Counted from the first letter of the stretch, positions 391 through 30,678 are shown. The stretch: 33,748 bases of DNA from an uncultured Gammaproteobacteria bacterium (GCA_964469995.1 CAYYAC010000002.1:1-33748), one strand, 5' to 3'. The notes: generated by a model not told the origin, from the sequence alone. Translations and numbers: made by a program.

Positions 391-420
391 TTGACATTTT
401 GAGTTGCTTCTAGCTATGAT
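391..420 (+). promoter_or_regulatory. sigma-70-like promoter of the pilB operon
   Basis: TTGACA 391-396, 18-nt spacer, TATGAT 415-420. In-frame ATG 428 lies 7 nt downstream with no SD. Confidence 0.5.
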
Positions 421-2149
421 AAATGCAATGCCCGATGTTCAAACCATTAATAATAATCAGACTTTAAGCGATGCTCTCCTTGCGTCTCATGCTATAACTC
501 AAGAGCAGTATAACGAAATAAAGGTTAAAAGCGCAAGCCAGGGAGTTTCTGAAGAAGAGATAATTAAAGCATCTAATTTTGTTACGGAAGATAAAATTAC
601 AGAGGCAAAGGCTAAGCTTTTAGGAATTCCCTTTGTGTCTTTAGATTCTGCTTCTTTTTCTCCTCAGGCCTTGAGTTTTGTTCCTCGCGCCGTTGCGGAA
701 AGATTTTCCCTAATCCCCTTTTTCTATGACGACAACACAAAAGTTCTATCTGTTGCAATGGCAAATCCTGTAGATTTGTCAGCTGTTGAATTTGTAAGCC
801 AAAAAACAGGGCTCACGATTAAAACTTTTGCGGCAATTCCTGCTGAAGTTGTAAGGGCTATAAACCAACAGTATAGGCAAGAACTAGTCGGTGAAGTTGG
901 AGCAGCTCTTAAAGAAACTGAAGATTTTAATAAGACCCGTACTGTTGACAGTACGCAAATTGCGCAGATTATAAAAGAAGCTCCAATTGCAAAGATAGTT
1001 GCAACTATTCTTGAGTATGCAGTAACAAGCCGCGCATCAGATGTACACATAGAACCTCAGGAAGACAGAATTAGGGTGCGTTATAGAATTGATGGAATTT
1101 TATATGACAAATTATCTTTGCCAAAAAATGTACAAGAGGCTGTTATTTCAAGAATAAAGATTCTTTCCGACATGAAAATAGATGAACACAGAACTCCTCA
1201 GGACGGCCGTTTCAATTTTAAAGTAGAAAAAGATGAAGTTGATCTTCGTGTATCTTCTATTCCAAATGTTTATGGAGAAAAAATAGTTATGAGGCTTCTT
1301 AGAAAATCTGGAGGAATTCCAACTTTGGAAGATTTAGGGCTTAATGGACCTGCTCTTAAAAGTCTTGAAACATCAATGCTTAGGCCCCACGGAATAATTA
1401 TTGTTTGTGGTCCGACAGGTTCTGGAAAAACCACAACTTTGTATGCAGTTTTGGCAAAACTTAACACAACGCGTGTTAATATTATGACTTTGGAAGACCC
1501 TGTTGAGTATCAAATTCAAGGTATTAATCAAGTTCAAATAAATCCTGGTGTTGGGCTTACTTTTGCAACGGGACTTAGGGCATTTTTAAGACAAGACCCA
1601 AACATTATTCTGGTTGGTGAAATTAGAGATCAAGAAACAACGGACTTGGCTATTCAAGCCGCACTTACAGGACATTTAGTCTTTTCAACTCTCCATACTT
1701 CAGATGCAGCAGGAGCTCTGCCCCGTCTTATTGATTTGGGTGCTGAAAATTTTCTTTTGTCTTCAACGATGAATGCAATTTTGGGACAAAGAATTGTTAG
1801 AAAAGTATGTCCTACTTGTAAAGAAGCATATAGTCCTCCTCCACAGATTTTAGAGGAATTAAAAAATGTACTTGGCAATCTTTTTCCTTCCACCCCGGAT
1901 ATTAAAATTTATAAAGGAAAAGGATGCGATCAATGTGGCAATTCAGGATATTTTGGCAGAATTGGTATTTTTGAAGTACTTCCTGTTAGCTCAAAAGTTG
2001 CAACTTTAGTTCTTGAAAAACAAGATAGTCAGGTAATTCAGAAAGAAGCTGTAGCGGAGGGAATGATAACAATGATGCAGGACGGTTTTCTTAAAGTTTT
2101 GCAAGGAATAACAACTCCGGAAGAAGTTCTTAGAGTTGCTCAGGAATAA
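404..2149 (+). CDS. pilB: type IV pilus assembly ATPase PilB (GspE family)
   Basis: N-terminal GspE_N-like region, Walker A GPTGSGKTTT, and tetracysteine CPTC...CDQC typical of PilB/GspE. Start is ambiguous (TTG 404, ATG 416, ATG 428); 428 fits the promoter geometry. Confidence 0.9.
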   Translation: MLLAMINAMPDVQTINNNQTLSDALLASHAITQEQYNEIKVKSASQGVSEEEIIKASNFVTEDKITEAKAKLLGIPFVSLDSASFSPQALSFVPRAVAERFSLIPFFYDDNTKVLSVAMANPVDLSAVEFVSQKTGLTIKTFAAIPAEVVRAINQQYRQELVGEVGAALKETEDFNKTRTVDSTQIAQIIKEAPIAKIVATILEYAVTSRASDVHIEPQEDRIRVRYRIDGILYDKLSLPKNVQEAVISRIKILSDMKIDEHRTPQDGRFNFKVEKDEVDLRVSSIPNVYGEKIVMRLLRKSGGIPTLEDLGLNGPALKSLETSMLRPHGIIIVCGPTGSGKTTTLYAVLAKLNTTRVNIMTLEDPVEYQIQGINQVQINPGVGLTFATGLRAFLRQDPNIILVGEIRDQETTDLAIQAALTGHLVFSTLHTSDAAGALPRLIDLGAENFLLSSTMNAILGQRIVRKVCPTCKEAYSPPPQILEELKNVLGNLFPSTPDIKIYKGKGCDQCGNSGYFGRIGIFEVLPVSSKVATLVLEKQDSQVIQKEAVAEGMITMMQDGFLKVLQGITTPEEVLRVAQE

Positions 2150-2152
2150 AAT

Positions 2153-3226
2153 ATGGATACAAACATACAACAGTTGTTGCAATTTACAATTCAAAACAAT
2201 TCATCAGATTTGCATCTTCTAGCTGGAATCCCTCCTGCTATAAGGATTGACGGCGCGCTAGTTTATGTTCCAAATTATCCCGCTCTCTCTAAGGAACAGA
2301 TTGAGCAAATGATTTTTTCACTTCTCTCCCCTACCCAAAAGCAACTTTTTCTTGCAAATAAGGAGCTAGACTTTTCTTTTGGTTTTGGCGGAGGAGTTTA
2401 TGGAGATAAAGGAAGATTTAGGGTAAACCTTTATTATCAAAGAGGCCTAGCAAGCGGAGCTTTTAGATTTTTGCCTCCTGTTATTAAAACAATTGAAGAT
2501 TTGGGACTTCCAAAAATTGCACACAACTTTGCATCTTTGCGTCAGGGATTTGTTTTAGTAACAGGTCCTACGGGACACGGAAAATCCAGTACTTTAGCTG
2601 CAATCATAAATGAAATAAATCTAACTCGTGCAACAAATATATTAACTATTGAAGATCCAATTGAATATATTTATCCAAACGGAAAAAGTATAATTTCTCA
2701 GCGTGAAATGGGCTCTGACACTCATTCCTGGACACTTGCTTTAAAGTCTGCACTGCGTGAAGATCCGGATGTAGTTTTAGTTGGGGAAATGAGAGATCCA
2801 GAAACAATATCTTCCGCTATTACGGTTGCTGAAACAGGACATTTGGTTTTTTCAACGCTTCATACAAATTCTGCATCTCAAACAATTGACAGAATGATTG
2901 ATTCTTTTCCGGCATATCAGCAGCCTCAGATTAGAGCGCAATTGGCTGCAACTCTTAAAGGAGTAATTTCACAGCGTCTTTTGCCAAAAATAAACGGAGG
3001 AAGAGTTCCTGCTGTTGAAATTCTTATTGGAACTCCAGCGCTTGCATCTAACATAAGAGAAGGAAAAACACATCTTATTGATTCTGTTATTCAGACTTCA
3101 GCGGATGTTGGAATGATTACCCTTGAGGCATCTTTGGCGCAACTTGTGCTCGCTGGGAGCATTAGTCTTGATATGGCAAAAAGTTATGCAATTCATCAGG
3201 AAGAATTATTGAGGTTGGTGGGATAA
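2153..3226 (+). CDS. pilT: twitching-motility retraction ATPase PilT
   Basis: 357 aa with Walker A GPTGHGKSST, an IRIDG motif near the N-terminus, no GspE_N domain, and PilT-typical size. Follows pilB after 3 nt. Confidence 0.85.
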   Translation: MDTNIQQLLQFTIQNNSSDLHLLAGIPPAIRIDGALVYVPNYPALSKEQIEQMIFSLLSPTQKQLFLANKELDFSFGFGGGVYGDKGRFRVNLYYQRGLASGAFRFLPPVIKTIEDLGLPKIAHNFASLRQGFVLVTGPTGHGKSSTLAAIINEINLTRATNILTIEDPIEYIYPNGKSIISQREMGSDTHSWTLALKSALREDPDVVLVGEMRDPETISSAITVAETGHLVFSTLHTNSASQTIDRMIDSFPAYQQPQIRAQLAATLKGVISQRLLPKINGGRVPAVEILIGTPALASNIREGKTHLIDSVIQTSADVGMITLEASLAQLVLAGSISLDMAKSYAIHQEELLRLVG

Positions 3227-3227
3227 C

Positions 3228-4447: not shown

Positions 4448-4478
4448 TTGACAACATGTTTTCAAATATGGTTATACT
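4448..4478 (+). promoter_or_regulatory. sigma-70-like promoter in front of the pilin gene
   Basis: TTGACA 4448-4453, then TTATAC/TATACT at 4472-4478 (18-19 nt spacer). ATG 4491 is 12 nt downstream with no SD. Confidence 0.45.
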
Positions 4479-4490
4479 AATAATATCTAG

Positions 4491-5066
4491 ATGAAAAGAC
4501 TGCTCACACGTTTTAAATCAAATGCTGGTTTTACCCTCATAGAACTTCTGGTTGTTATAGGTATTTTGGGTGTTCTAGCTTCTGCTTTAGTTGCAACTAT
4601 TGACCCTTTTGAGCAGTTGAACAAAGCTCAGGATGCTAATGTTAAAAACGCCTCTGTAGAATTTTTAAATTCAAACATAAGATACTTTACAACGCACAAT
4701 GCAATGCCATGGTTTGATTCAGCAGACGGAGGAACAAATTGTTATTCAACAACTACTTTGACTCAAATTTCCCTTTTGCAATTAAACAATAATTCCACCA
4801 CAACTGACCTTGGCTGTATGAAAGCTTTAATAGATGAAGGAGAATTAAAGCAGGGATTTGCAACATTTAACGGATTGAGCAAGATATTTGTAACAAACCC
4901 AAATCCACAGACTCCAGATGATCCAAACAGCGTTATTGCTTGCTATAAACCAATCTCTAAATCAGGGCAAAAAGATCCATTAGCTAAATATGCTCAAGAC
5001 GGTTCAGCTGGAACAACTTGCATATCTGCGGGTGGAGCAACACCTTGCTATTGGTGTGCACAGTAG
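4491..5066 (+). CDS. type IV pilin, candidate major pilin
   Basis: Class III signal MKRLLTRFKSNAG|FTLIELLVVIGILGVLA with Glu at +5. 191 aa, paired Cys in the C-terminal half. It has its own promoter and sits first among the pilin genes. Confidence 0.8.
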   Translation: MKRLLTRFKSNAGFTLIELLVVIGILGVLASALVATIDPFEQLNKAQDANVKNASVEFLNSNIRYFTTHNAMPWFDSADGGTNCYSTTTLTQISLLQLNNNSTTTDLGCMKALIDEGELKQGFATFNGLSKIFVTNPNPQTPDDPNSVIACYKPISKSGQKDPLAKYAQDGSAGTTCISAGGATPCYWCAQ

Positions 5067-9539: not shown

Positions 9540-9569
9540 TTGACATGTAAGCTTGTGCTTTGCTACGCT
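9540..9569 (+). promoter_or_regulatory. internal sigma-70-like promoter
   Basis: TTGACA 9540-9545, 18-nt spacer, TACGCT 9564-9569, then 6 nt to ATG 9576. Confidence 0.35.
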
Positions 9570-9575
9570 TTAAAT

Positions 9576-10361
9576 ATGCTTAGAAAAAACGAAAGTGGTC
9601 AGGTTTTGCTGGCCATTGTTCTTATTATGGTAATTGGGCTTACTGTTGGTCTTTCTCTTGCTTCTCGTAGTATAACAAGTCTTAGAACATCGGAAGAAGA
9701 AATAAACTCCCAGCAAGCCCTATCTGCTGCAGAAGCAGGGATTGAACAAGTTTCAAAAACTAATTCAAACATACAAAATGGTATATTTTCAAATCGTACG
9801 TCTTACAATACTTCAATAGCTCCTGTTTCAGGAAATGACTTCTTGCTTAATGGAGGAAGTGTAATTTTGAAAGATGATAGCGCAGATATATGGCTTTCTG
9901 ATTATTCAACAGATTCTGCTAGGCTTTATCAAAATCCATGGAGCGGAAGTTTAAACATATATTGGGGAAAAGGCAGCGACGGGTGTACTCAGGCGGCTCT
10001 TGAAATAATTGTAATTTCTGGAAGCAAAGCAAGCCCTATATCTAGAAAATATGCTTTTGACCCATGCATAACAAGAAGCAGCACTAATCATTTTACTCTT
10101 GTTTCATCTGGGGGAACAGCTGCTGGAGTTAGTTTTCCATTTGGTACAACCATAAACATTAGCTCTGGGCTGATTGCAAGAGTAATTCCTCTCTATTTTG
10201 ATGCTCCCATAGGTCTTGTTGGAAGCGTTGATCTTCCTTCTCAGGGGTCTTTAATTACGTCTGTTGGAAATTCAGGAACAACAAGCAGAAAAATTACTGT
10301 TTTTCAGGGATTTCCAACTCTTCCCTCTGAATATTTCCCATATGGACTTTTTTCTCCATAG
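9576..10361 (+). CDS. PilX-like pilus component (PilX_N-type N-terminus)
   Basis: MLRKNESGQVLLAIVLIMVIGLTVGLSLASRSITSLRTSEEE...AEAGIEQ resembles PilX N-terminal domains (no Glu at +5). Track start TTG 9537 is rejected in favour of ATG 9576. Confidence 0.6.
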   Translation: MLRKNESGQVLLAIVLIMVIGLTVGLSLASRSITSLRTSEEEINSQQALSAAEAGIEQVSKTNSNIQNGIFSNRTSYNTSIAPVSGNDFLLNGGSVILKDDSADIWLSDYSTDSARLYQNPWSGSLNIYWGKGSDGCTQAALEIIVISGSKASPISRKYAFDPCITRSSTNHFTLVSSGGTAAGVSFPFGTTINISSGLIARVIPLYFDAPIGLVGSVDLPSQGSLITSVGNSGTTSRKITVFQGFPTLPSEYFPYGLFSP

Positions 10362-13807: not shown

Positions 13808-13813
13808 AAGCTA

Positions 13814-15745: not shown

Positions 15746-15752
15746 TTTATAG

Positions 15753-17891: not shown

Positions 17892-17898
17892 TTAAAAA

Positions 17899-19266: not shown

Positions 19267-20432
19267 TAATTGATAGATATCTTTACAATTTTTCTTTTTC
19301 CAACTCTAAGAATTCCCTCTTCTATTTTTTCATCTGCGTTTTCTATTTTTTTATCATTAACATTCACTCCGCCTTGTCCAATTAATCTTTTTGCTTCTGA
19401 AATGCTTCCCGCAAATCCAGTGTCTGTTAATACTTGAGTAATAATAGAGTCTTTTTTTACACTAAGCTCTGTTATTTCTTCCGGTAATTCTTTATTTTGT
19501 ACTCTGCTTTCAAAATCTTTTTCTGCTTTATCTGCAGAACCGTCATCATAAAGTTCAGAGACAATAGCTCTTGCTAACTTTTTCTTTATGATTATTGGAT
19601 TTTCATTTTTAAATTCTTCTTCTATTTTTTTAATTTCTTCAAAAGAAATATTTGTAACTAAGGTAAAGTAATTTATTATCAAATTGTCTTCAACTCTCAT
19701 TATCTTTGCGTACATTTCAGAAGGTTCGTCATTTAGCCAAATTGCGTTTCCGTAAGTCTTGCTCATTTTTCTCCCGTCCGTTCCTTCAAGAATTGGAGTT
19801 GTTAAAACAAAAGATTCCCTGTTGTCTGTTGCTTTGATTAATGTTCTTCCTGCCTGCATATTAAAAGTTTGATCTGTTCCACCAAGTTGGATATCTGTTC
19901 TTAAAGTTAAGCTGTCATAGGCTTGCATTACAGGATATAAAAACTCATGAAGCCCAACCCTTTTTCCGTCGTCTAATCTTTTTCTAATGAGCTCCCGGCT
20001 TACAAAGTCACCAACGGAAAAAAGCTGACAAAGTTTTATTATTTCTAAAAATGTTAAATCTTTAAGCCATTCGCTGTTATATTTTATTTTAACTTTTGAA
20101 AAATCTAGAATTTTTTCTGCTTGCTGTTTGTAAGTTTTAAAATTTTCTTCAATTTGCTCAGAAGATATACTAGGTCTTTCGCTTTCTTTGTCTGAGGTAT
20201 CTCCAATTAGCGCAGTGAAATCGCCTATTAGTAGAGTGACATTGTGTCCTATTTCTGCAAATTTTTGAAGTTTTCTAAGAGCTACGGTATGTCCTAAGTG
20301 AATTTGTGGAGCAGTTGGATCAATTCCTAAATAGATATTTAATTTTCCACTTTCTAATTTCTTTTTTAATTCTTCCTTGCTTGGAATTATATTTGCAACT
20401 CCCCTACTAAGTAATTCATCTATATCGTTCAT
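19266..20432 (-). CDS. tyrS: tyrosyl-tRNA synthetase
   Basis: HIGH motif as HLGH, KMSKS motif as KMSKT, and a C-terminal S4 domain (RLIGQGGVNVNDKKI). ATG 20432 is preferred over track TTG 20468 because of the promoter. Confidence 0.9.
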   Translation of the reverse strand: MNDIDELLSRGVANIIPSKEELKKKLESGKLNIYLGIDPTAPQIHLGHTVALRKLQKFAEIGHNVTLLIGDFTALIGDTSDKESERPSISSEQIEENFKTYKQQAEKILDFSKVKIKYNSEWLKDLTFLEIIKLCQLFSVGDFVSRELIRKRLDDGKRVGLHEFLYPVMQAYDSLTLRTDIQLGGTDQTFNMQAGRTLIKATDNRESFVLTTPILEGTDGRKMSKTYGNAIWLNDEPSEMYAKIMRVEDNLIINYFTLVTNISFEEIKKIEEEFKNENPIIIKKKLARAIVSELYDDGSADKAEKDFESRVQNKELPEEITELSVKKDSIITQVLTDTGFAGSISEAKRLIGQGGVNVNDKKIENADEKIEEGILRVGKRKIVKISIN

Positions 20433-20438
20433 GAGATG

Positions 20439-20468
20439 ATTATACGAAGAAACAGCTTGAAATATCAA
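20439..20468 (-). promoter_or_regulatory. sigma-70-like promoter abutting tyrS
   Basis: Minus strand reads TTGATA (20468-20463), 18 nt, TATAAT (20444-20439), 6 nt, ATG 20432. Confidence 0.5.
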
Positions 20469-20476: not shown

Positions 20477-20887
20477 TTATCTTCTTTGCGAACCGTCTGT
20501 GGAATACTTACGTACTCTTTTTACAACATGTTCTCTTTTTCTTCTATCTAAAATTTCTCCTGCTGCTGCAGCTCCAGAAACGATTGCTAAAATTGGCCCC
20601 ATTATCACAAAAGAAGCTGCTGTTTGTTCTAAGCTTCCGTCTCTTTTATCATCCGCAAATTTTTGATCAATTGCAGAAATCTCGTCTCTTATTTGATTTT
20701 TTCTTGTTTCATCTTGTTCATTTTTCTCTGAAGTCTGCAATTTTGTCTTTTGAGTTGCCCAGTTAATATGGTCTGCTTGAGCTCCATAATTTTCGGACGC
20801 ATACTTAAATCCAATTCCGGTAGATATGATTGCAGCGCCTGCAACGGATGACAAAAGTATTTCTTTTCCTGTTGGCATATGCCACAT
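20477..20887 (-). CDS. hypothetical membrane protein (two hydrophobic segments flanking a charged loop)
   Basis: ORF only, no recognisable family. ATG 20878 fits promoter TTGACA(20913-20908)-16-TAGAAT(20891-20886)-7 better than ATG 20887. Confidence 0.5.
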   Translation of the reverse strand: MWHMPTGKEILLSSVAGAAIISTGIGFKYASENYGAQADHINWATQKTKLQTSEKNEQDETRKNQIRDEISAIDQKFADDKRDGSLEQTAASFVIMGPILAIVSGAAAAGEILDRRKREHVVKRVRKYSTDGSQRR

Positions 20888-20906
20888 TCTATTACTTTTT
20901 ATTTCT

Positions 20907-20935
20907 TTGTCAAGAAAGTGTGTATTTGATATACT
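20907..20935 (+). promoter_or_regulatory. sigma-70-like promoter abutting the PBP gene; -35 overlaps the divergent promoter
   Basis: TTGTCA 20907-20912, 17 nt, TATACT 20930-20935, 6 nt, ATG 20942. The minus-strand TTGACA occupies 20908-20913. Confidence 0.5.
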
Positions 20936-20941
20936 TATTCT

Positions 20942-23260
20942 ATGGACTACAGGAGTAGACGTAGACGTGTATCTTTTCGAGGGACTAAGGTTGACATATT
21001 CCTCTTAAGTAAACTTTCAAGATATGCTTTTTTTGGTCTTATTGGATTCATTCTTCTCATGACCGTTCTTTTTATCTGGTATGGACGGGATTTGCCAACT
21101 CCAGGAAAACTTGTTAATTCAGACCTTTCTCAGTCGACAAGAATTTATGACAGAAGCGGTATACTTCTTTATTCTGTTTATTCCAATGAAAACAGAACAT
21201 ATGTAAAACTTTCAGACATACCTAAATATCTTCAGCAAGGTACAGTTGCAATAGAGGACAAAAATTTTTATACAAATCAAGGGTTTTCAATAACAGGATA
21301 CATAAGAGGACTTATAATAGACCCTATATTTAGAAGGCGTGTATCGGGAGGTTCTACTATTACTCAGCAGCTAGTAAAAAATGTCCTGCTTACCTCTGAG
21401 AGGTCTTTGCCCCGTAAGATAAAAGAGTTAATGCTTTCTATTCAAGTTGATAAAAAATACACAAAAGATCAAATTTTAGAAATGTATCTAAATGATGTTC
21501 CCTATGGTGGGGCAAACATTGGTGTAGAAGCTGCAGCAGAAAGTTATTTTGGAAAAAAAGTTAAAGATTTAGATTTAGCAGAGAGTGCATTTTTGTCTGG
21601 ACTTCCTCAAGCTCCAAGCGTTTACTCTCCATTTACTGGCGGAAAATATTACATTGATAGAACTGCTACTGTTTTAGACCAGATGAAAAATCAAGGAGAA
21701 ATTACCCAAAAGCAAGCAGACGCGGCGCTTGTAGAAATTAAAAATAAACAATTTACAACTCAGCAGGCAACGGGAGGGATAAAAGCTCCCCATTTTGTTA
21801 TTTACATAAAACAGCTTTTAGCGCAGCAATTTGGTGAAGCTTTGGTAGATAGCGGAGGTCTTCAGGTTACTACAACTCTTGATTACAGTATAGAAAAACA
21901 AGCTGAAGATATCGTAAAGACAGAATTAGATAAGCTTAAAGGATACAGCGTTGGGAACGGAGCTGCTATTGTTATGGATCCAAAGACTGGAGAAATACTT
22001 GCAATGGTTGGAAGCAAAGATTACTTTGACACAAAAAATGATGGAAACTTTAACGCTGCCCTGTCTAATCGTCAGCCTGGTTCTTCTCTGAAGCCTATTA
22101 TGTATGCAACAGCTTTTCAAAAAGGATATACAGCATCAAGTATGATTATGGATGTCAAAACGGACTTTCCTACCAATGATCCAAAGACTCCAATATATAC
22201 ACCAGTAAATTATGATGGTAAATATCATGGACCTATGCAGCTTAGATTTGCTTTGGGAAATTCTGTAAATGTCCCTGCAGTAAAAATGCTTGCAAAAGTT
22301 GGAATAGCAGATGTTATGACAAATGCTTACAACATGGGAATTCAAAACTGGCAGCCAACATCTGCAAATTTAGCAAGCGTTGGTTTGTCTCTGGTACTAG
22401 GAGGCCGCGAAACAAACTTATTAAATGAAGTAACAGCCTATGATGTTTTTGCAAATGCTGGAATAAGGCAAGATCCAGTTGCGATTTTAAAAGTAACAGA
22501 CGCTAAGGGAAATACACTTTTTGAAAATAAAAAACATGATGGAAGCAGAGTCTTGCCCGCTAATATAACTTTTTTGATATCTCATATTTTACTTGATAAC
22601 GTTGCCAGAACTTTGGAATTTGGCGCAAATTCTTTTCTTGTAGTTCCAGGCAAAACTGTTTCTGTAAAAACGGGAACAACAGATGATAAAAGAGATAACT
22701 GGACAGTTGGATACACGCCATCATTTGTAGTAGGAGTTTGGGTTGGAAATAATGACAATAGTCCAATGAATCCAGCTATTGCTTCTGGAATAACAGGAGC
22801 GGCTCCAATTTGGAATAAAATTATGAGTTTTGTTCTCAAAGGCAAGACTGATGAGCCTTTAGTAAAACCAGATGATGTTATAGCTCTTCAGGTAGATACT
22901 GTAGGAGGGGGTCTTCCTGTTTCTGGTCACCCAACGCGCAGTGAATATTTTATAAAAGGAACAGAGCCTACAAATACTACAATTTATCAAAAAATTCCAA
23001 TGTCTAGAAAACAAAATGGAAAAAGAGCAAATGCAGATGAAATAAGCCATGGAGATTATGACAATAAAGATTTTGTTGTTTTTGCGGAGAGCGACCCAGT
23101 ATCAACAGACGGACAAAACAGATGGCAATCTGGAATTGATGCATGGATAAATGAAAATCATAAAGATGACCCGCTTTACCATCCGCCAACTCAAACATCT
23201 GATTTTAAATATGATTCTTCTCCAACGCCGACTCCAACAGAGGTATCCCCGACTCCTTAA
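20942..23260 (+). CDS. class A penicillin-binding protein (glycosyltransferase GT51 + transpeptidase)
   Basis: N-terminal TM; EDKNFY and GGSTITQQ (GT51); SSLKP (SxxK), SVN (SxN), KTGTT. About 150 aa of C-terminal extension ends in SSPTPTPTEVSPTP. Confidence 0.9.
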   Translation: MDYRSRRRRVSFRGTKVDIFLLSKLSRYAFFGLIGFILLMTVLFIWYGRDLPTPGKLVNSDLSQSTRIYDRSGILLYSVYSNENRTYVKLSDIPKYLQQGTVAIEDKNFYTNQGFSITGYIRGLIIDPIFRRRVSGGSTITQQLVKNVLLTSERSLPRKIKELMLSIQVDKKYTKDQILEMYLNDVPYGGANIGVEAAAESYFGKKVKDLDLAESAFLSGLPQAPSVYSPFTGGKYYIDRTATVLDQMKNQGEITQKQADAALVEIKNKQFTTQQATGGIKAPHFVIYIKQLLAQQFGEALVDSGGLQVTTTLDYSIEKQAEDIVKTELDKLKGYSVGNGAAIVMDPKTGEILAMVGSKDYFDTKNDGNFNAALSNRQPGSSLKPIMYATAFQKGYTASSMIMDVKTDFPTNDPKTPIYTPVNYDGKYHGPMQLRFALGNSVNVPAVKMLAKVGIADVMTNAYNMGIQNWQPTSANLASVGLSLVLGGRETNLLNEVTAYDVFANAGIRQDPVAILKVTDAKGNTLFENKKHDGSRVLPANITFLISHILLDNVARTLEFGANSFLVVPGKTVSVKTGTTDDKRDNWTVGYTPSFVVGVWVGNNDNSPMNPAIASGITGAAPIWNKIMSFVLKGKTDEPLVKPDDVIALQVDTVGGGLPVSGHPTRSEYFIKGTEPTNTTIYQKIPMSRKQNGKRANADEISHGDYDNKDFVVFAESDPVSTDGQNRWQSGIDAWINENHKDDPLYHPPTQTSDFKYDSSPTPTPTEVSPTP

Positions 23261-25130: not shown

Positions 25131-26168
25131 TTAAAATTGTTCTAAAATTCTTAAATCTGGATTTGTTAAAAGACGTAAGTCGTCCATTTCAAATTTTAAA
25201 GTTGCCATTCTAGAAAATCCTGTTCCAAAGGCAAATCCTGAATATTCATTTGGATCTATTCCAACGGCTTTTAAAACGTTAGGATGAATCATTCCAGCTC
25301 CTAGTATTTCTACCCAGCCGCTTCTTTTGCAAAAACTGCATCCTTTTCCCTTACATACAACACAACTTATATATGCTTCAGCTCCTGGTTCTACAAAAGG
25401 AAAATTGTGGCAGACGAATTTAACTTTTGTTTTCTCTCCAAAAAATTGTTTTAAAAAATAATCCAGTGTGCCAAAAAGATGAGCCATGGAAACATTTTTA
25501 TCAACCATAAATCCTTCAACTTGCCAAAATTCAAATCCATGAGATGCATCAACCTGCTCATATCTAAAAACTTTTCCTGGAACTATAACTCTGAATGGGG
25601 GTTTTATTTTTTCCATTACCCTCCCCTGCATATTTGATGTCTGAGTTCTAAGGAGCATTTCTCCAGGAGAATAGCTTGTTCCTTGTGTGTCCATAAATAG
25701 GGTTTGCTGTGTATCCCGGGCCGGATGATCTTTTGGAATATTTAAAACTTCAAAATTATAATGGTCGCTTTCTATTTCTGGACCGTCTGCAACTTGAAAT
25801 CCAAGAGACTTAAAAATCTCAATGGTTTCATACATGACCTGGCTTATTGGATGCATATGTCCTATTTTTGGAGCGATTCCTGGAACTGTTCTGTCTATGC
25901 TTTCTTTCTTTTTAGACATAAATTCGTTTGAAAGCTGTTCTAGTTTTTCTTCAATACTTTGTTCTATTGTTTTCTTTATTTCATTTGCGAGCATTCCAAC
26001 TTCTGCTCTTTTCTCAATTGGAATTTTAGGAAGTTCTTTTAAGGCAATAGTTAACTTTCCGCTTTTTCCTAAGAATTGCAGTTTTGTTTCCTCTAATGAT
26101 TTTTTGTCCTCCGCCTCAAAAATAAAAGACAGCGCAGTATTTTTAATATTTATAAGTTCGTCTTCCAT
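25131..26168 (-). CDS. pheS: phenylalanyl-tRNA synthetase alpha subunit
   Basis: 345 aa; class II motifs (HPARD, FRYE, GFAFGTGFSRMA). Lies 2 nt upstream of pheT. Confidence 0.95.
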   Translation of the reverse strand: MEDELINIKNTALSFIFEAEDKKSLEETKLQFLGKSGKLTIALKELPKIPIEKRAEVGMLANEIKKTIEQSIEEKLEQLSNEFMSKKKESIDRTVPGIAPKIGHMHPISQVMYETIEIFKSLGFQVADGPEIESDHYNFEVLNIPKDHPARDTQQTLFMDTQGTSYSPGEMLLRTQTSNMQGRVMEKIKPPFRVIVPGKVFRYEQVDASHGFEFWQVEGFMVDKNVSMAHLFGTLDYFLKQFFGEKTKVKFVCHNFPFVEPGAEAYISCVVCKGKGCSFCKRSGWVEILGAGMIHPNVLKAVGIDPNEYSGFAFGTGFSRMATLKFEMDDLRLLTNPDLRILEQF

Positions 26169-26175
26169 AAATTAG

Positions 26176-26183
26176 ATTATACA
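26176..26183 (-). promoter_or_regulatory. extended -10 promoter abutting pheS
   Basis: Minus strand reads TGTATAAT, then 7 nt, then ATG 26168. No SD. Confidence 0.45.
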
Positions 26184-26191
26184 CAATTTAT

Positions 26192-26446
26192 TTATTTTTT
26201 TAACGTGTCTCTTAAAAAAATAGGAATTAATCCATCTTTTCTAGTTCGTATGGTTTCTGGAATTTCTATCTGTACCCCAGAAGGGCAATTTTCTTCTCCT
26301 ACCCCCTGTGCAATTGAGTCTTGTCGTGCCCTGCTTCTTGCAACATTAATAGGAGTAGGCTGCATTGCAGCTTCTACAGCGATATCCAATATAGGACAAC
26401 CAAAGCAATTTCCTGATTTTAATTTTATACAACTTTCTCTTTCCAT
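26192..26446 (-). CDS. hypothetical small Cys-containing protein (84 aa)
   Basis: MERESCIKLKSGNCFGCPIL...; AGGTG lies 6 nt before ATG 26446 (track GTG 26455). No family recognised. Confidence 0.5.
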   Translation of the reverse strand: MERESCIKLKSGNCFGCPILDIAVEAAMQPTPINVARSRARQDSIAQGVGEENCPSGVQIEIPETIRTRKDGLIPIFLRDTLKK

Positions 26447-26467
26447 AATATTCACCTACTTTCCCAC

Positions 26468-26492: not shown

Positions 26493-26579
26493 CCGTGTAG
26501 CTTCTTTTACACTAAATCACCTCCCGGTTTGGGATGTAAAATAGTGTTTAAAGAAATTTCTTAACATATATTTATATTA

Positions 26580-26930
26580 CTAATTGCTTTTGACAGAGTC
26601 AACTATTTTTTTGAAAGTTTCAATATCGTTTACTACTAAATCACTCAAAATTTTTCTATCAAGTTCTATCTTTGAATTTTTAAGTCCATTTATTAATCTG
26701 CTGTAAGATATTCCCTCTACTTTTGCTGCCTCTCCAATTCTTATTATCCAAAGACCTCTTATATCTCTTTTCCTAAGTTTTCTTCCGTGATACGCATATG
26801 AGCCAGCATGAAGCGCTGCCTCTTTAGCATTTCTAACAAGCCTTCTCTTGCTTCCTAAAAAGCCTTTTGTAAGACCCAAAAGTTTATTGTGTTTTCTTTT
26901 TGAAACTACTCCTCTTTTTACTCTAGCCAT
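26580..26930 (-). CDS. rplT: 50S ribosomal protein L20
   Basis: MARVKRGVVSKRKHNKLL...AYHGRKLRKRDIRGLWIIRI is an L20 signature. AAGGAG lies upstream. Confidence 0.95.
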   Translation of the reverse strand: MARVKRGVVSKRKHNKLLGLTKGFLGSKRRLVRNAKEAALHAGSYAYHGRKLRKRDIRGLWIIRIGEAAKVEGISYSRLINGLKNSKIELDRKILSDLVVNDIETFKKIVDSVKSN

Positions 26931-26931
26931 A

Positions 26932-27084
26932 TTATTTTTCTCCTTTAAAACTTTTTACATTTGGAGTTTTAATGAATTTTGTAATTCTCTCCATGTATCT
27001 TCCAAAGTTTCTGTAAGAAGCCGTTGCACTTCTTTCAGAATTCGTTTGCTTGAAATTAATGTTCCTGTTTTTCTGGTTTTTCAT
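26932..27084 (-). CDS. unannotated 50-aa basic protein between rpmI and rplT
   Basis: Hand translation: MKNQKNRNINFKQTNSERSATASYRNFGRYMERITKFIKTPNVKSFKGEK. Its ATG overlaps the rpmI stop (TAATG), and its TAA is 1 nt before the rplT ATG. It fills the whole 153-nt gap. Confidence 0.55.
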   Translation of the reverse strand: MKNQKNRNINFKQTNSERSATASYRNFGRYMERITKFIKTPNVKSFKGEK

Positions 27085-27828: not shown

Positions 27829-29014
27829 TTTCTTTTTTTAGGACAGCTTGGAACTCTGAAATTGTTAATGTTTTAGAGTCCCCTTTTCTATCTCTTACTG
27901 AAAGCATATTGCCATCAGCAACTTCTTTCTCCCCTATTATACCTAAATAAGGCACTTTTTGTAAAGTGGCTGTACGTATCTTGGCTTGAAGGGTTTCAGA
28001 ACGTCCATCAACCTCAACTCTTATTCCCTCTTTTCTGAGTATCTCCGCTAGTTTTTCTGCATGCTCTTTTTGATTATCTGTTATTGGAAGTATCATAACT
28101 TGAACCGGAGCAAGCCATAATGGAAAAGCACCTTGGAATTGTTCTGTTAATATTCCAATAAATCTTTCCAGGCTTCCTGTAATTGCGCGGTGTACTATAA
28201 CGGGTCTTTTAGGTTCTCCATCATTGTCTATATATTCTAGTTTTAATTTCTCTGGAATTTGAAAATCAAGTTGGATGGTGGCCACTTGCCATTCTCTTTT
28301 TTGAGAATCTTCTATTTGAATATCAATTTTAGGTCCGTAGAATGCTCCGTCTTTTTCTTTTGTTCCATACTCTACATCTGATGCTTTTAGAGCTTCTTTA
28401 AGTCCCTCTTCTGCCTGGTCCCAAAGTTTTTCATCACCCATTGCGCTGTCAGGCTTTGTTGAAAGATAAAACTTTGGTTTAAAATTAAAACTTTTATAAA
28501 AATCTACAACAAGGTTTAATAAGCTTTGTATTTCTGCTTGAATTTGGTCAGGGCGCACATAAATATGTGCATCATCAATAGTAAATTGTCTGACACGGAA
28601 AAGTCCGCCCAATACTCCGGATAATTCGTTTCTGTGTAAAATTCCAAAATCAGAATATCTAATTGGTAAATCATGATAGCTTCTTGTTGTGTTAGAAAAT
28701 ATAAGAGCGGATTCTGGACAGTTCATTGGCTTTAAGGAATAACTTTCATCTTCTACATCTAGGTTGAACATATTTTCTTTATAGTGTTCCCAATGTCCTG
28801 AATTTTTAAACAATTGGCTTTTAGTCATAACAGGTGTTGAGATTTCTGTATAGCCTTCTTTAGCAAGTAAATCGCGGATAAAGCTTTGTAATGTTAAGTA
28901 AATTTTCCATCCTTTTGGGTGCCAAAAAACAGCACCAGGTGCTACTTCATGAAAAGAAAATAGATCTAATTCCTGACCGATTTGCCTGTGATCTTTAAGG
29001 TTTGAGTTGTCCAT
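27812..29014 (-). CDS. thrS: threonyl-tRNA synthetase, catalytic + anticodon-binding domains only
   Basis: 400 aa starting KDHRQIGQELDLFSFHEVAPGAVFWHPKGW, which matches about residue 240 of E. coli ThrRS. The Zn ligands are retained (MNCPES, DDAHIY, VHRAITGS). Confidence 0.9.
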   Translation of the reverse strand: MDNSNLKDHRQIGQELDLFSFHEVAPGAVFWHPKGWKIYLTLQSFIRDLLAKEGYTEISTPVMTKSQLFKNSGHWEHYKENMFNLDVEDESYSLKPMNCPESALIFSNTTRSYHDLPIRYSDFGILHRNELSGVLGGLFRVRQFTIDDAHIYVRPDQIQAEIQSLLNLVVDFYKSFNFKPKFYLSTKPDSAMGDEKLWDQAEEGLKEALKASDVEYGTKEKDGAFYGPKIDIQIEDSQKREWQVATIQLDFQIPEKLKLEYIDNDGEPKRPVIVHRAITGSLERFIGILTEQFQGAFPLWLAPVQVMILPITDNQKEHAEKLAEILRKEGIRVEVDGRSETLQAKIRTATLQKVPYLGIIGEKEVADGNMLSVRDRKGDSKTLTISEFQAVLKKEIEQKL

Positions 29015-29019
29015 GAGGC

Positions 29020-29241
29020 TTATTTTAGCAACTGAGAGTTGTTTTGTAAAACGTTTCTTATAATCTCGGTAACAAAGTTGCCAAAGAATGGAATTAAATC
29101 AACTTTTGAAAAAATAAAAATAAGAATGGCTACGATAATTGTGCTGCCAAGAAAAACACCCAAAGACCAGGCAATTCCGCCAATAAAATTATCTATAAAC
29201 ATTTTTTTTCTGTTCCTGTGAACTGCCTCGTTGGGCTGCAT
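29020..29241 (-). CDS. hypothetical small membrane protein (73 aa)
   Basis: MQPNEAVHRNRKKMFIDNFIGGIAWSLGVFLGSTIIVAILIFIF... On the minus strand TATACT + 6 nt precedes ATG 29241; the track start is TTG 29259. Confidence 0.5.
   Translation of the reverse strand: MQPNEAVHRNRKKMFIDNFIGGIAWSLGVFLGSTIIVAILIFIFSKVDLIPFFGNFVTEIIRNVLQNNSQLLK
29022..29050 (-). promoter_or_regulatory. sigma-70-like promoter abutting thrS
   Basis: Minus strand reads TTTACA (29050-29045), 17 nt, TAAAAT (29027-29022), 7 nt, ATG 29014. Confidence 0.5.
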
Positions 29242-29284
29242 GGAATTAGTATAGTACAATTATGTTTGCGAGGAAAGCGAGGTA

Positions 29285-30193
29285 TTATTTTGTAATAGTT
29301 CCTGTGACTGGAAAAACTTCGTAAAAGTTTTGAGGGAAAACTATATAAGGAAAGTCTCCTTTAACAGCTGGTTTTCCGGCAAGTCCTACATTTAAAGATC
29401 TTCTACTAGCTTCTGCCAAATATTCAGCATAACTTTTTCCAATAGCTCTTCCGCCGATTGCAAGACCAAAGCTGTTGCATGCTAATTCCTTGGCTAAGAC
29501 AAGTTCGTCCAGAGTAAGGTGCTCTTTTTTGTCAAATATCATAACTGATATTCCCATTCTTTGGCACGCTTCAATAGTAAAGGTTGTCGTTATAATTTCA
29601 GCATCTGTTTTAAAGAACGGACCTTTAAGAAACGGGCTATCGCTTTTTAAATGACGAAGTACAGTTGTATTTTCATTATTTCTTGTATCTATCAAAGTGT
29701 ATGCAGGCTGTTGAGTTTGTATTTGCAAAGGATAATTGTCTGCTAGCGCATTAATAGCCACAAGATTATCTGGAAGCACAAATATGTTTTGAGTAACTGA
29801 CTTGCCTCTTCCAACTGCAAGGGTGGCATCTTTTCCTTGAATTCTTGTTGGTATAGCATAATCCTGAGAAAGAGCAACTTCTACGGCATCAAGTAGTGCA
29901 GTTGCAGCTTTTTCATCAATAGGATTTGGAGCAAAATTTTCTATGGTAGTAATTCCGTCATCAAAAATACTTTTATGTTTTATTGTTTGAGTCTCAGGCA
30001 TACCTCTCTCTGCGAAAGCAGATTTAAGCTCTTTAGAAAATAAAACACCAGGATTTGCTGTTGCACCAGCTTTTGGTTGTTCGGCAGTTGCTTGTGGAAC
30101 AGCCTTGGGTGCTGTATCCGAACATCCTGCAAGAGCCAAGCTAAGTAGAGTTGCTTGACCTATTCTAGAAGCTCCTTCTTTCAAATTCCACAT
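29285..30193 (-). CDS. hypothetical lipoprotein
   Basis: Signal peptide with lipobox LSLALAG|C. 302 aa, no family recognised. Confidence 0.6.
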   Translation of the reverse strand: MWNLKEGASRIGQATLLSLALAGCSDTAPKAVPQATAEQPKAGATANPGVLFSKELKSAFAERGMPETQTIKHKSIFDDGITTIENFAPNPIDEKAATALLDAVEVALSQDYAIPTRIQGKDATLAVGRGKSVTQNIFVLPDNLVAINALADNYPLQIQTQQPAYTLIDTRNNENTTVLRHLKSDSPFLKGPFFKTDAEIITTTFTIEACQRMGISVMIFDKKEHLTLDELVLAKELACNSFGLAIGGRAIGKSYAEYLAEASRRSLNVGLAGKPAVKGDFPYIVFPQNFYEVFPVTGTITK

Positions 30194-30202
30194 AAGATAG
30201 CT

Positions 30203-30231
30203 ATTCTAACATAAAAACTATAGGCTGTCAA
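30203..30231 (-). promoter_or_regulatory. consensus promoter of the lipoprotein gene with CCTATAGTT spacer motif
   Basis: Minus strand reads TTGACA (30231-30226), 17 nt (gCCTATAGTTtttatgt), TAGAAT (30208-30203), 9 nt, ATG 30193. Confidence 0.55.
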
Positions 30232-30242
30232 CTGTGGGGACT

Positions 30243-30319
30243 TGGTGGGCCCAAGAGGATTCGAACCTCTGACCTTTACAATGTCAATGTAACGCTCTAA
30301 CCAACTGAGCTATGAGCCC
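30243..30319 (-). tRNA. tRNA-Val (anticodon GAC), CCA encoded
   Basis: GGGCTCA-TA-GCTC-AGTTGGTTA-GAGC-G-TTACA-TTGACAT-TGTAA-AGGTC-AGAGG-TTCGAAT-CCTCT-TGGGCCC-A-CCA. The cloverleaf was folded by hand. Confidence 0.9.
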
Positions 30320-30337
30320 GCGTTCACTATTTTACCA

Positions 30338-30550
30338 TTATGCTCCCATATTTTCTACGTGGCTTTGCCATTCAAATCTTCTCCTGGCGATTTCTTCCAC
30401 CTGGGCAACAAAAACTATGGTTGAAATAAGATTTGTCATCTCTTGTGTTTGAGGAGCACTTACTTCAAATTCCTGCTGAACATTTCTTGTATATCGTTCA
30501 AATCCTGGCATTACTGATATGTTTGGTAAATTTTCTTTCATATTTGACAT
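30338..30550 (-). CDS. hypothetical 70-aa protein
   Basis: MSNMKENLPNISVMPGFERY...; GGAGG lies 7 nt before ATG 30550. An alternative in-frame GTG at 30586 has its own GGGAGG. Confidence 0.5.
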   Translation of the reverse strand: MSNMKENLPNISVMPGFERYTRNVQQEFEVSAPQTQEMTNLISTIVFVAQVEEIARRRFEWQSHVENMGA

Positions 30551-30678
30551 AAAAAAACCTCCTTTTGGGAGGTTGTAAACACACAAAACCTCCCTTAACT
30601 AAATGTTAAGAAGAAGGTTTTTGATTGATTGATTTCTTTTCATAAAATAATATTAAATCCTTGCAACTTTCTTGTCAA
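30551..30678 (-). promoter_or_regulatory. promoter + 14-codon leader ORF + alternative hairpins (attenuator candidate)
   Basis: TTGACA 30678-30673, 17 nt, TAATAT 30655-30650, 6 nt, ATG 30643. Leader ORF is MKRNQSIKNLLLNI with stop at 30601-30599. GGGAGGTT 30594-30587, AACCTCCC 30574-30567, GGAGGTT 30562-30556, then T-run. Confidence 0.45.

What the first reader, a model, noticed from the sequence alone, without database searches (positions are those of the whole stretch)
391..30678. Recurrent promoter-at-ATG geometry: operon-first genes look leaderless
Eleven first-in-unit genes have a -10 hexamer ending 6-7 nt before the ATG, no SD in between, and usually a -35 box 16-18 nt upstream. The sites are: pilB TTGACA(391)-18-TATGAT(415)-7-ATG428. 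PilX-like TTGACA(9540)-18-TACGCT(9564)-6-ATG9576. rpsP TGATAAAAT(13822-13814)-6-ATG13807. HAD TGATATAAT(15761-15753)-7-ATG15745. tyrS TTGATA-18-TATAAT(20444-20439)-6-ATG20432. Membrane ORF TTGACA-16-TAGAAT(20891-20886)-7-ATG20878. PBP TTGTCA(20907)-17-TATACT(20930)-6-ATG20942. pheS TGTATAAT(26183-26176)-7-ATG26168. thrS TTTACA-17-TAAAAT(29027-29022)-7-ATG29014. Small membrane ORF TATACT(29253-29248)-6-ATG29241. Leader ORF TTGACA-17-TAATAT(30655-30650)-6-ATG30643. Sigma-70 holoenzyme normally initiates about 7 nt past the -10, so the predicted +1 is the A of the ATG. Internal genes instead use ATGA/TAATG overlaps or clear SDs (GGAG before 7045, AAGGAG before rplT, AGGTG before 26446, GGAGG before 30550). 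The PBP promoter and the divergent membrane-ORF promoter also share overlapping -35 boxes (20907-20913). Three aaRS genes (tyrS, pheS, thrS) therefore have no room for T-box or attenuator leaders. Caveat: TAnnnT hexamers are common in AT-rich DNA; the paired -35 boxes are the stronger evidence.
Basis: partly seen in the sequence, partly recalled or inferred. Interest (0 to 1): 0.65.

Follow-up and report, generated by a model that had tools for sequence, protein, structure and literature searches.

The report
Leaderless-type promoters in a Levybacteria contig
In this contig from an uncultured ultra-small bacterium (Candidatus Levybacteria, candidate phyla radiation), most transcription units have an ordinary bacterial promoter whose -10 box ends 6-7 bases before the start codon, so their mRNAs probably begin at the AUG; this layout is well known in Actinobacteria and Deinococcus, but I found no report of it for this lineage.

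Summary
All 11 sites are at the stated coordinates. I found three more: rpmF (GTG 15046), a 35-codon ORF (ATG 17891) and a mini-ORF (ATG 26567).

- **Statistics in the window.** 12 of 42 gene starts have TANNNT ending 6-7 nt upstream, against 5% of all ATGs (p about 1e-6). The full configuration (-10 at 6-7 nt plus a -35 or TG extension) occurs at 16 of 935 ATGs, and 10 of those are true gene starts (p about 2e-10).
- **Conservation.** The window is Candidatus Levybacteria (CPR). In orthologous loci of relatives, the box (often TGnTAnnnT) stays 6-8 nt before the ATG of pheS, tyrS, the PBP gene, thrS, DUF5665, rpsP, pilB, the PilX-like gene and rpmF. The flanks diverge, and terminators often sit directly upstream.
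- **Independent gene calls.** In relatives, 18 of 40 operon-first genes show the box, against 8 of 57 internal genes. Non-CPR control loci show about 1%.
- **TSS signature.** The base before the ATG is a pyrimidine in 90% of the 6-nt sites.
- **SD use.** SD cores are rare (11% against 62% in controls).

Verdict: a bacterial leaderless ('group C'-like) architecture in an undescribed lineage. The mechanism is known, so interest is moderate.

The parts
391..430 (+). pilB promoter and start: TTGACA(391-396)-18-TATGAT(415-420)-7-ATG428
   Evidence: Orthologs L165-L167 keep TANNNT 7 nt before ATGCC.
4448..4493 (+). Major pilin gene with a short leader: TTGACA-19-TATACT-12-ATG4491 (predicted 5' UTR about 5 nt, no SD)
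   Evidence: Relatives have a strong -35 and a 10-25 nt spacer.
9540..9578 (+). PilX-like gene: TTGACA-18-TACGCT-6-ATG9576
   Evidence: L162 has TTGACA-17-TACGCT-6-ATG and L164 has TTGACA-17-TACTCT-6-ATG.
13805..13842 (-). rpsP: TTGAGA-17-TGaTAAAAT-6-ATG13807; the promoter lies in the 3' end of rnc
   Evidence: Four relatives keep TTGAG..TGnTAnAAT 6-8 nt before the ATG.
15044..15082 (-). rpmF (new site): TTGCAA-17-TATAAT-7-GTG15046, a leaderless-type GTG start
   Evidence: L163 has TATAAT-6-ATG and L164 has TAAAAT-6-ATG.
15743..15761 (-). HAD hydrolase: TGaTATAAT-7-ATG15745 (weak -35)
   Evidence: L162 has TGgTATATT-6-ATG.
17889..17927 (-). 35-codon membrane sORF (new site): TTGAGA-18-TATAAT-6-ATG17891; recG is coupled to it (TAAtATG)
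   Evidence: The sORF is called in L163, and its C-terminus is conserved upstream of recG.
20430..20468 (-). tyrS: TTGATA-18-TATAAT-6-ATG20432
   Evidence: Eight of the 11 relatives, and three more, have TGnTATACT 6 nt before the ATG while flanks are unrelated.
20876..20913 (-). 133-aa membrane ORF: TTGACA-16-TAGAAT-7-ATG20878; its -35 overlaps that of the PBP promoter
   Evidence: No ortholog was recovered.
20907..20944 (+). Class A PBP: TTGTCA-17-TGaTATACT-6-ATG20942
   Evidence: Five of the 12 full-length relatives keep a TGGTATAcT/TATAAT box 6 nt before the called ATG (L101, L104, L094, L087, L097). Spacers are 7-9 nt in three others, and the remaining starts look mis-called.
26166..26203 (-). 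pheS: TTAAAA-16-TATAAT-7-ATG26168
   Evidence: About 27 of 37 printed relatives keep a TANNNT box 5-8 nt before the ATG, and 23 of these carry the TG extension. Several have a terminator hairpin directly upstream.
26565..26602 (-). 16-codon mini-ORF (new site): TTGACT-17-TAATAT-6-ATG26567, upstream of the rplT terminator and orf87
29012..29050 (-). thrS: TTTACA-17-TGcTAAAAT-7-ATG29014; the promoter lies inside or over the DUF5665 gene end
   Evidence: Thirteen of the 15 relatives keep a T(T/G)(T/A/G)ACA-type -35, an extended TGnTAnAAT/TAAGAT -10 and a 6-7 nt spacer. The other two (L107, L106) have N-extended calls.
29239..29276 (-). DUF5665 small membrane protein: TATACT-6-ATG29241 (weak -35)
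   Evidence: Relatives have TGnTATACT-6-ATG, or GTG in L101, L102 and L104.
30191..30231 (-). orf302, near-leaderless: TTGACA-17-TGtTAGAAT-9-ATG30193
30641..30678 (-). 14-codon mini-ORF: TTGACA-17-TAATAT-6-ATG30643. The transcript continues into a three-segment GGGAGG / CCUCCC / GGAGG+U7 structure and the SD-led 70-aa ORF (ATG 30550).
31294..31336 (-). DUF5660 gene, near-leaderless: TTGATT-17-TGaTAATTT-11-ATG31296
   Evidence: The promoter is conserved in 9 relatives, with an 8-13 nt spacer.
33584..33627 (-). orf196, near-leaderless: TTGACA, then GACTAT or TATAAT, 9-12 nt before ATG33586
   Evidence: In the four relatives that carry GACTAT, its spacer is 7 nt in L087, 8 nt in L108 and L090, and 12 nt in the window.
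26930..26950 (-). Contrast: rplT start with AAGGAG 9 nt upstream (internal, SD-type)
32139..32258 (-). Contrast: tRNA-Leu(UAG) with its own TATAAT promoter, followed 8-9 nt later by the tig ATG (32141), with no SD
   Evidence: The spacing is the same in 5 relatives.

Best explanation
**Organism.** The window comes from a Candidatus Levybacteria (Microgenomates, CPR/Patescibacteria) genome.

**Heads of units.** Most heads of transcription units are served by a housekeeping sigma-70-type promoter. It has a -35 like TTGACA, a 16-18 nt spacer, and a -10 TAnnnT that often carries the TGn extension. Its -10 box ends 6-7 nt before the start codon. RNA polymerase starts about 7 nt past the -10, so the transcript should begin at, or one base before, the A of the AUG (GUG in rpmF). 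Such an mRNA has no room for an SD. It would be translated by the leaderless route known from other bacteria, in which the ribosome with initiator tRNA binds a 5'-terminal AUG directly.

**Other genes.** Genes inside units are translated by stop/start overlap or close coupling (ATGA, TAATG, TAAnnnATG). A few (rplT, rpmI, orf87, the 70-aa ORF) have SD-like sequences. A minority of heads (pilin1, orf302, orf196, DUF5660) have spacers of 9-13 nt and so predicted leaders of 2-6 nt.

**Consequences.** tyrS, pheS and thrS cannot carry T-box or attenuator leaders. Promoters are often embedded in the 3' end of the preceding gene.

**Shown versus inferred.** Shown: the motifs, their positional enrichment, their conservation and their restriction to unit heads. 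Inferred: the actual transcription start and the leaderless mode of translation.
For: - **Geometry:** all sites verified.
- **Enrichment in the window:** 12 of 42 starts against 5.1% of all ATGs, p 9e-7. Ten of the 16 full promoter-ATG configurations in the window are true gene starts, p 2e-10.
- **Lineage:** pheS is 85% identical to Levyibacteriota MAGs.
- **Relatives, positional profile:** in 33 loci (325 kb) TANNNT peaks at spacer 6 (25% of starts; 19% with TG). In 1.2 Mb of non-CPR control loci it is about 1% with the same pipeline.
- **Ortholog footprints:** pheS, tyrS, PBP, thrS, DUF5665, rpsP, PilX-like, pilB, HAD and rpmF keep the box at 6-8 nt while flanks diverge. Terminator hairpins abut the pheS -10 in several relatives.
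- **Independent gene calls in relatives:** 18 of 40 operon-first genes against 8 of 57 internal genes have TANNNT at 6-7 nt. Several of the 'internal' ones are rpsP, HAD and rpmF, which have their own promoters.
- **Start-site signature:** among 90 unique spacer-6 sites, 62% carry TG at -15/-14, and 90% have a pyrimidine at -1 against 62% of other starts (p 1e-7). This is the known Y(-1)R(+1) preference.
- **SD cores:** 11% of starts in the window and 9-13% in relatives, against 62% in controls.
- **RNA families:** no T-box or other leader RNA in Rfam.
- **Definition matched:** the geometry matches GeneMarkS-2 'group C', defined as a Pribnow box 6-8 nt from the start of first genes in operons, with 25-50% of operons affected (PMC6028130).
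Against: - **No TSS data.** No RNA run holds the window. One RNA run that matched a relative gave only short 90-95% contigs with no 5'-end pile-ups.
- **Non-independence.** The relatives' sites are orthologous, so the pooled percentages and p-values overstate independence.
- **Coding constraint.** For rpsP, HAD and thrS the promoter lies in the upstream gene's coding end, so part of its conservation could be coding constraint, and these genes may also be read from longer transcripts.
- **Weak -35 boxes.** HAD, DUF5665 and pheS have weak -35 boxes.
- **Spacer 7.** Sites with spacer 7 may have a 1-nt leader.
- **Start choice.** Start codons were taken as the first ATG, supported by N-terminal alignment but not by protein data.
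Confidence: 0.85

Rival explanations
1. The promoters are real but transcription starts 1-6 nt before the AUG at most sites. On this reading the mRNAs have very short leaders rather than none, and initiation may use an unknown short-leader mechanism.
For: Six of the 13 window sites have spacer 7, and four further heads have spacers 9-13. At spacer-7 sites the -1 base is a purine in half the cases.
Against: The main peak in relatives is at spacer 6 (25%, against 8% at spacer 7). Spacer 6 puts the canonical +1 exactly on the A, and the -1 pyrimidine rule holds for 90% of those sites. In other bacteria, leaders of 5 nt or less are treated as functionally leaderless.
Confidence: 0.1
2. For the tightly packed genes (rpsP, HAD, thrS, pheS) the -10/-35-like sequences are conserved mainly as codons of the upstream gene, or act only as minor internal promoters. 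These genes would mostly be translated from polycistronic RNA by coupling.
For: The gaps to the upstream gene are only 15, 21, 5 and 23 nt. The thrS and rpsP boxes lie in coding sequence that is itself conserved.
Against: The same geometry is found where the promoter is purely intergenic (pilB, tyrS, PBP, PilX-like). In relatives the pheS -10 follows a terminator hairpin directly. TG and -35 elements sit at the right spacing at rpsP and thrS in every relative that has an alignable start.
Confidence: 0.12
3. The TAnnnT box is a translation signal on a leadered mRNA (a non-SD, A/U-rich ribosome-binding element as in Bacteroidota 'group B'), not a promoter.
For: SD cores are near background, so some SD-independent signal must exist. 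A/U-rich upstream regions are known to help initiation.
Against: The box comes with a -35 at 16-18 nt and TG at -15/-14. It is enriched at operon-first genes rather than at all genes, whereas group B motifs occur before all genes (PMC6028130). Terminators or the divergent partner's promoter leave no upstream transcript.
Confidence: 0.04
4. The pattern is chance in AT-rich DNA combined with a biased choice of start codons.
For: The window is 35% GC. TANNNT occurs at about 2-3% of positions. Promoter-like matches in the window as a whole are not far above shuffles (59 vs 51.6 and 55 vs 46).
Against: - Positional p-values are 1e-6 to 1e-10.
- The pattern is conserved across orthologs.
- It is present with independent gene calls.
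- It is absent in AT-rich Firmicutes controls.
Confidence: 0.01

Closest known systems
GeneMarkS-2 'group C' bacterial genomes (frequent leaderless transcription; Lomsadze et al. 2018, PMC6028130), typified by Mycobacterium tuberculosis, M. smegmatis, Corynebacterium, Streptomyces and Deinococcus deserti
   Same: A Pribnow box lies 6-8 nt before the start codon of first genes in operons. Roughly 25-60% of units are affected. 5'-terminal AUG or GUG starts are used. A different signal is used at internal genes.
   Different: - The lineage is a low-GC (35%) CPR/Microgenomates bacterium, whereas group C is mostly high-GC Actinobacteria and Deinococcus-Thermus.
- The -10 is very often the extended TGn type, with a good -35.
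- Promoters are frequently embedded in the preceding gene's end.
- SD cores are near background even at internal genes.
- There is no experimental TSS map here.
Classical single leaderless mRNAs of E. coli and its elements (lambda cI from PRM, Tn1721 tetR)
   Same: A sigma-70 promoter starts transcription at the A of the AUG. Translation needs no SD (own knowledge).
   Different: In E. coli these are rare exceptions. Here it is the commonest layout for heads of units, including housekeeping genes (aaRS, r-proteins, PBP).
Parcubacteria subgroup lacking the 16S anti-SD motif (Tsurumaki et al. 2022, PMC9297842)
   Same: It is a CPR lineage with reduced ribosomes and little use of SD pairing.
   Different: That paper reports loss of the anti-SD only for a Parcubacteria subgroup (detected in 48% of Parcubacteria). 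It does not report loss for Microgenomates. This window still has SD-like sites at rplT, rpmI and two small ORFs. The paper does not discuss leaderless promoters.
T-box and leader-peptide control of aaRS genes (Bacillota T-box; E. coli pheST attenuator, thrS operator)
   Same: The genes are the same (tyrS, pheS-pheT, thrS-infC-rpmI-rplT cluster).
   Different: No leader exists here. The gaps are 44, 23 and 5 nt, the -10 box is 6-7 nt from the ATG, and there is no Rfam hit.

Membership tests
Bacterial leaderless ('group C') gene-start architecture | -10 (Pribnow) box 6-8 nt upstream of the start codon of first genes in operons | tested here: met
   There are 13 sites in the window at spacer 6-7. 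A peak at spacer 6 is seen in relatives.
Bacterial leaderless ('group C') gene-start architecture | A substantial share (about 25% or more) of transcription units affected | tested here: met
   About 13 of about 22 heads in the window (my tally from the table). With independent gene calls in relatives, 18 of 40 operon-first genes. The whole genome could not be counted.
Bacterial leaderless ('group C') gene-start architecture | The motif is a promoter, not an RBS: it is accompanied by -35/TG elements and restricted to unit heads | tested here: met
   Eleven of the 13 sites have a -35 with at least 4 of 6 matches at 16-18 nt or the TG extension (HAD by TG only); rpmF and DUF5665 have neither under that rule. 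TG is present in 62% of spacer-6 sites. Operon-first against internal genes gives an odds ratio of 3.1.
Bacterial leaderless ('group C') gene-start architecture | Other genes use RBS (SD) sites | tested here: inconclusive
   SD-like sites occur at rplT, rpmI, orf87 and the 70-aa ORF. Overall SD-core frequency is 11%, close to chance, and most internal genes are overlapped or coupled.
Bacterial leaderless ('group C') gene-start architecture | Mapped transcription start coincides with the start codon | not testable with these tools
   No RNA run holds the window. The one run for a relative was uninformative.
T-box leader (RF00230) upstream of aaRS genes | A structured leader RNA of about 200 nt or more between promoter and aaRS start | tested here: not met
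   Rfam at gathering threshold finds only tRNAs in the window and in 5 relatives. The gaps are 44, 23 and 5 nt. The Firmicutes loci meant as a positive control also gave no hit, so the physical lack of room is the stronger argument.

The most novel reading that the evidence does not exclude
SD-independent expression is the default mode of Levybacteria and of at least some neighbouring Microgenomates.

- The promoter itself defines the translation start for about half or more of all units, including aaRS, ribosomal-protein, cell-wall and pilus genes.
- Promoters are routinely embedded in the previous gene's end.
- Remaining genes are read by stop/start coupling, or from 5' ends made by tRNA processing (tig, 8-9 nt after tRNA-Leu).
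- SD pairing is kept only for special cases. These include the two mini-ORF / GGGAGG-CCUCCC-GGAGG switches, where a leaderless mini-ORF could couple leaderless-initiation capacity to termination or SD exposure.
Probability: 0.3. Interest if true: 0.6.

Novelty: new member of a known kind. Interest (0 to 1): 0.4.

Why it matters
- **Annotation.** If confirmed, Levybacteria (and probably other Microgenomates) are a low-GC, reduced-genome lineage to add to the bacteria that rely heavily on leaderless mRNAs. Gene finders that expect an SD mis-place starts in these MAGs. Examples are the called pilB start inside the -10 box in L165 and the truncated or extended calls for the PBP gene and trmD.
- **Regulation.** Leader-based regulation of aaRS and ribosomal-protein genes is structurally excluded, so these organisms must regulate at the promoter or not at all.
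- **Ribosome biology.** The finding links to the reduced CPR ribosome (short bS1, missing uL30 and bL9; PMC9297842) and to ideas that leaderless initiation is ancestral.
- **Limit.** The mechanism itself is not new.

Tried and rejected
1. **Whole-genome analysis and 16S anti-SD.** No 16S 3' end is present in any of the 164 fetched loci.
2. **RNA evidence.** There are no RNA runs for the window or for L084. Only DNA runs of one soil study hold the window. Run X5 for relative L101 gave short, 90-95% identical contigs from other strains and no 5'-end pile-ups.
3. **T-box positive control.** Two Firmicutes pheS loci gave no Rfam hit at gathering threshold, so that control is uninformative.
4. **Literature.** No paper in the held library links 'leaderless' with Candidate Phyla Radiation, Patescibacteria, Saccharibacteria or Microgenomates in the sense meant here. 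The TM7x TSS paper (PMID 35975994) is not held.
5. **Paralogy of the two small ORFs.** The test was invalid: the orf82/70-aa query was translated one base out of frame, so the 'no hits' result against orf87 says nothing either way.
6. **Chance explanation.** Rejected.
7. **Non-SD RBS explanation.** Rejected because of the -35/TG elements and the restriction to unit heads.

Full report
**What the window is.** The 33.7-kb window has 35% GC. Pfam identifies these genes:
- a type IV pilus cluster: pilB, pilT, pilC, pilins, pilD, pilM, pilN, pilO;
- trmD, a KH protein gene, rpsP, rnc, nusB, rpmF, a HAD hydrolase gene, recG, purD;
- tyrS and a class A PBP gene;
- pheS-pheT and thrS-infC-rpmI-rplT;
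- DUF5665 and DUF5660 genes, and tig.

There are also three tRNAs. PheS is 83-87% identical to proteins of Candidatus Levybacteria/Levyibacteriota MAGs and metagenome contigs. The organism is therefore a Levybacteria member of the Microgenomates (CPR/Patescibacteria).

**Checking the observation.** The overlapping divergent -35 boxes at 20907-20913 are also present. Three further sites have the same geometry:
- rpmF: TTGCAA-17-TATAAT-7-GTG15046;
- a conserved 35-codon membrane ORF: TTGAGA-18-TATAAT-6-ATG17891, with recG coupled to its stop;
- a 16-codon mini-ORF: TTGACT-17-TAATAT-6-ATG26567.

Four more heads have the same kind of promoter with a 9-13 nt spacer: pilin1, orf302, DUF5660 and orf196.

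**Is it more than chance?**
- Of 42 gene starts, 12 have TANNNT ending 6-7 nt upstream. The rate over all 935 ATG trinucleotides on both strands is 5.1% (binomial p 9e-7).
- A stricter test required TANNNT at spacer 6-7 together with a -35 (at least 4 of 6 at 16-18 nt) or a TG extension. Only 16 ATGs in the window qualify. Ten of them are the first ATG of a real gene, two open the mini-ORFs, and four look like noise.
- True gene starts make up about 4.5% of ATGs, so this gives p 2e-10.
- Generic promoter-like matches over the whole window are not much above shuffles. The signal is therefore in the position, not in the number of hexamers.

**Relatives: positional profile.** I fetched 33 Levybacteria-like loci around pheS (325 kb). 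I also fetched seven loci around trmD and the pilus genes, which come with independent gene calls. With one simple ORF pipeline:
- TANNNT peaks at spacer 6 in 25% of gene starts in the relatives, and 19% carry TG at -15/-14;
- four Woesebacteria-like loci show 24%;
- 1.2 Mb of non-CPR loci (mostly Enterococcus, Granulicatella and similar) show about 1%.

**Relatives: ortholog by ortholog.**
- The box stays 6-8 nt before the conserved ATG while the surrounding sequence is unrelated. This holds for pheS in about 27 of the 37 printed relatives, 23 of them with the TG extension. Exceptions include L003 (GTG start with a GAGGAG SD), L105, L106 and L112, and L001 has spacer 9.
- The same holds for tyrS, PBP, thrS and DUF5665, and for rpsP, PilX-like, HAD and rpmF.
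- For pilB the box TANNNT is 7 nt before ATGCC in four genomes.
- In several relatives an intrinsic terminator hairpin with a T-run directly abuts the pheS -10 box. No upstream transcript can then supply a leader.
- N-termini align from residue 1 for most orthologs, which supports the chosen start codons.

**Operon-first versus internal genes.** I used the collection's own gene calls for 97 genes in relatives and the GeneMarkS-2 rule for first genes in operons. Of 40 operon-first genes, 18 have TANNNT at spacer 6-7. Of 57 internal genes, 8 do. Several of these 'internal' cases are rpsP, HAD, rpmF and a Mur ligase gene, whose promoter lies in the previous gene's end.

**Start-site signature.** Among 90 unique spacer-6 sites, 62% have the TG extension and 90% have a pyrimidine at -1, against 62% of other starts (p 1e-7). 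This fits the known pyrimidine(-1)/purine(+1) preference of RNA polymerase, with +1 on the A of the ATG. These sites are partly orthologous, so the p-values overstate independence.

**SD use and internal genes.**
- An SD core (GGAG, GAGG or AGGA at -18 to -5) is found at 11% of starts in the window and 9-13% in relatives, against 62% in the controls.
- SD-like sequences do precede rplT, rpmI, orf87 and the 70-aa ORF at 30550.
- The GGAGG before 30550 is also the 3' arm of a terminator-like hairpin.
- Most internal genes overlap or nearly touch the previous stop codon.
- The literature reports that the anti-SD motif is missing only in a Parcubacteria subgroup, and that CPR bS1 is short (PMC9297842). 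I could not read this genome's 16S.

**aaRS leaders.** tyrS, pheS and thrS lie 44, 23 and 5 nt behind the upstream gene. Rfam at gathering threshold finds nothing but tRNAs in the window and in five relatives. The intended Firmicutes positive control gave no T-box hit. The argument therefore rests mainly on the lack of room.

**Mechanism.** The best explanation is the known bacterial leaderless architecture. A sigma-70-type promoter places +1 on the AUG, and the 5'-terminal AUG (or GUG) is then translated without an SD. The motifs, their position, their conservation and their restriction to unit heads are shown. The transcription start and the mode of initiation are inferred.

**Comparison with what is known.** The geometry and frequency match GeneMarkS-2 'group C': a Pribnow box 6-8 nt from the start, with 25-50% of operons affected, mostly in Actinobacteria and Deinococcus-Thermus (PMC6028130). 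The differences are:
- the lineage, which is low-GC CPR;
- the frequent extended -10;
- promoters embedded in upstream genes;
- near-background SD use.

**Prior knowledge.** Full-text searches found no paper that links leaderless mRNAs with CPR, Patescibacteria, Saccharibacteria or Microgenomates. Earlier AI notes of this scan reached the same conclusion on other Levybacteria genomes and on another piece of this genome. They are leads, not independent evidence.

**What could not be done.**
There is therefore no whole-genome count, no 16S tail and no bS1/IF3 inventory.
- No RNA run holds the window.
- One RNA run for a relative gave only short contigs of other strains and no 5'-end pile-ups.

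**Verdict.** This is a new member of a known kind. Interest is moderate, because the mechanism is established and only the lineage is new.

Noticed in passing
window 32846-32927 (-): A conserved module stands directly before the wall-hydrolase-like gene. It consists of TTGACA-17-TGaTACAAT, then a 45-nt hairpin (AGATCCTAAGGTATGC...GCATACGTTAGGAT, about -21 kcal/mol) and a U-run. Promoter and hairpin are nearly identical in L087, L088, L089, L090, L101 and L108, although the flanking proteins are only about 55% identical. In L088 and L089 the downstream gene is not adjacent. An A/G change keeps a G-U pair only on this strand. It is a candidate small RNA of about 55 nt, or a 5' attenuator. There is no Rfam hit.
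   Followed up: partly
window 32141-32258 (-): The tig ATG (32141) lies 8-9 nt after the 3' end of tRNA-Leu(UAG), with no SD and no promoter in between. The tRNA has its own TATAAT (32258-32253). The same tRNA-to-tig spacing is found in 5 relatives. tRNA 3' processing would leave a tig mRNA with a leader of about 9 nt.
   Followed up: partly
window 30550-30678 (-) and 26446-26602 (-): There are two similar arrangements. Each has a leaderless-type mini-ORF (14 and 16 codons), then three segments (GGGAGG, CCUCCC, GGAGG(G)) plus a U-run. These can form alternative hairpins, the last of which is terminator-like and holds the SD of, or precedes, a small ORF (70 aa; 84 aa, Cys-rich). They are possible translation-sensing attenuators. 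Homology between the two downstream ORFs was not validly tested, because one query was read out of frame.
   Followed up: partly
window 27812-29014 (-): ThrRS is only 400 aa, with the class II core and anticodon-binding domain only. It lacks the N-terminal TGS and editing domains.
   Followed up: no
window 27812-27828 (-): infC appears to start at TTG, overlapping the thrS end by 17 nt. In most relatives the first in-frame ATG is about 60 codons in, which suggests a conserved non-ATG start, as known for infC autoregulation.
   Followed up: no
window 30319-30337 (-): tRNA-Val has an extended -10 (TGGTAAAAT) that ends 9 nt before the mature 5' end, so its precursor leader would be only 2-3 nt. 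Promoters abut RNA genes as well.
   Followed up: no
L166 1074-2780: Four consecutive small genes of a relative each have a -10 box 6-7 nt before the ATG. Each is preceded by the same repeated sequence CGAAAATTTGGTTTTGA in the -35 region. This may be a shared operator or an alternative -35.
   Followed up: no
L101 15298-15367, L104, L094: The divergent tyrS/PBP intergenic region (about 70 nt) of some relatives holds two leaderless-type promoters. Between them are ACTAGT/CTAGT-rich inverted repeats, a possible shared operator.
   Followed up: no
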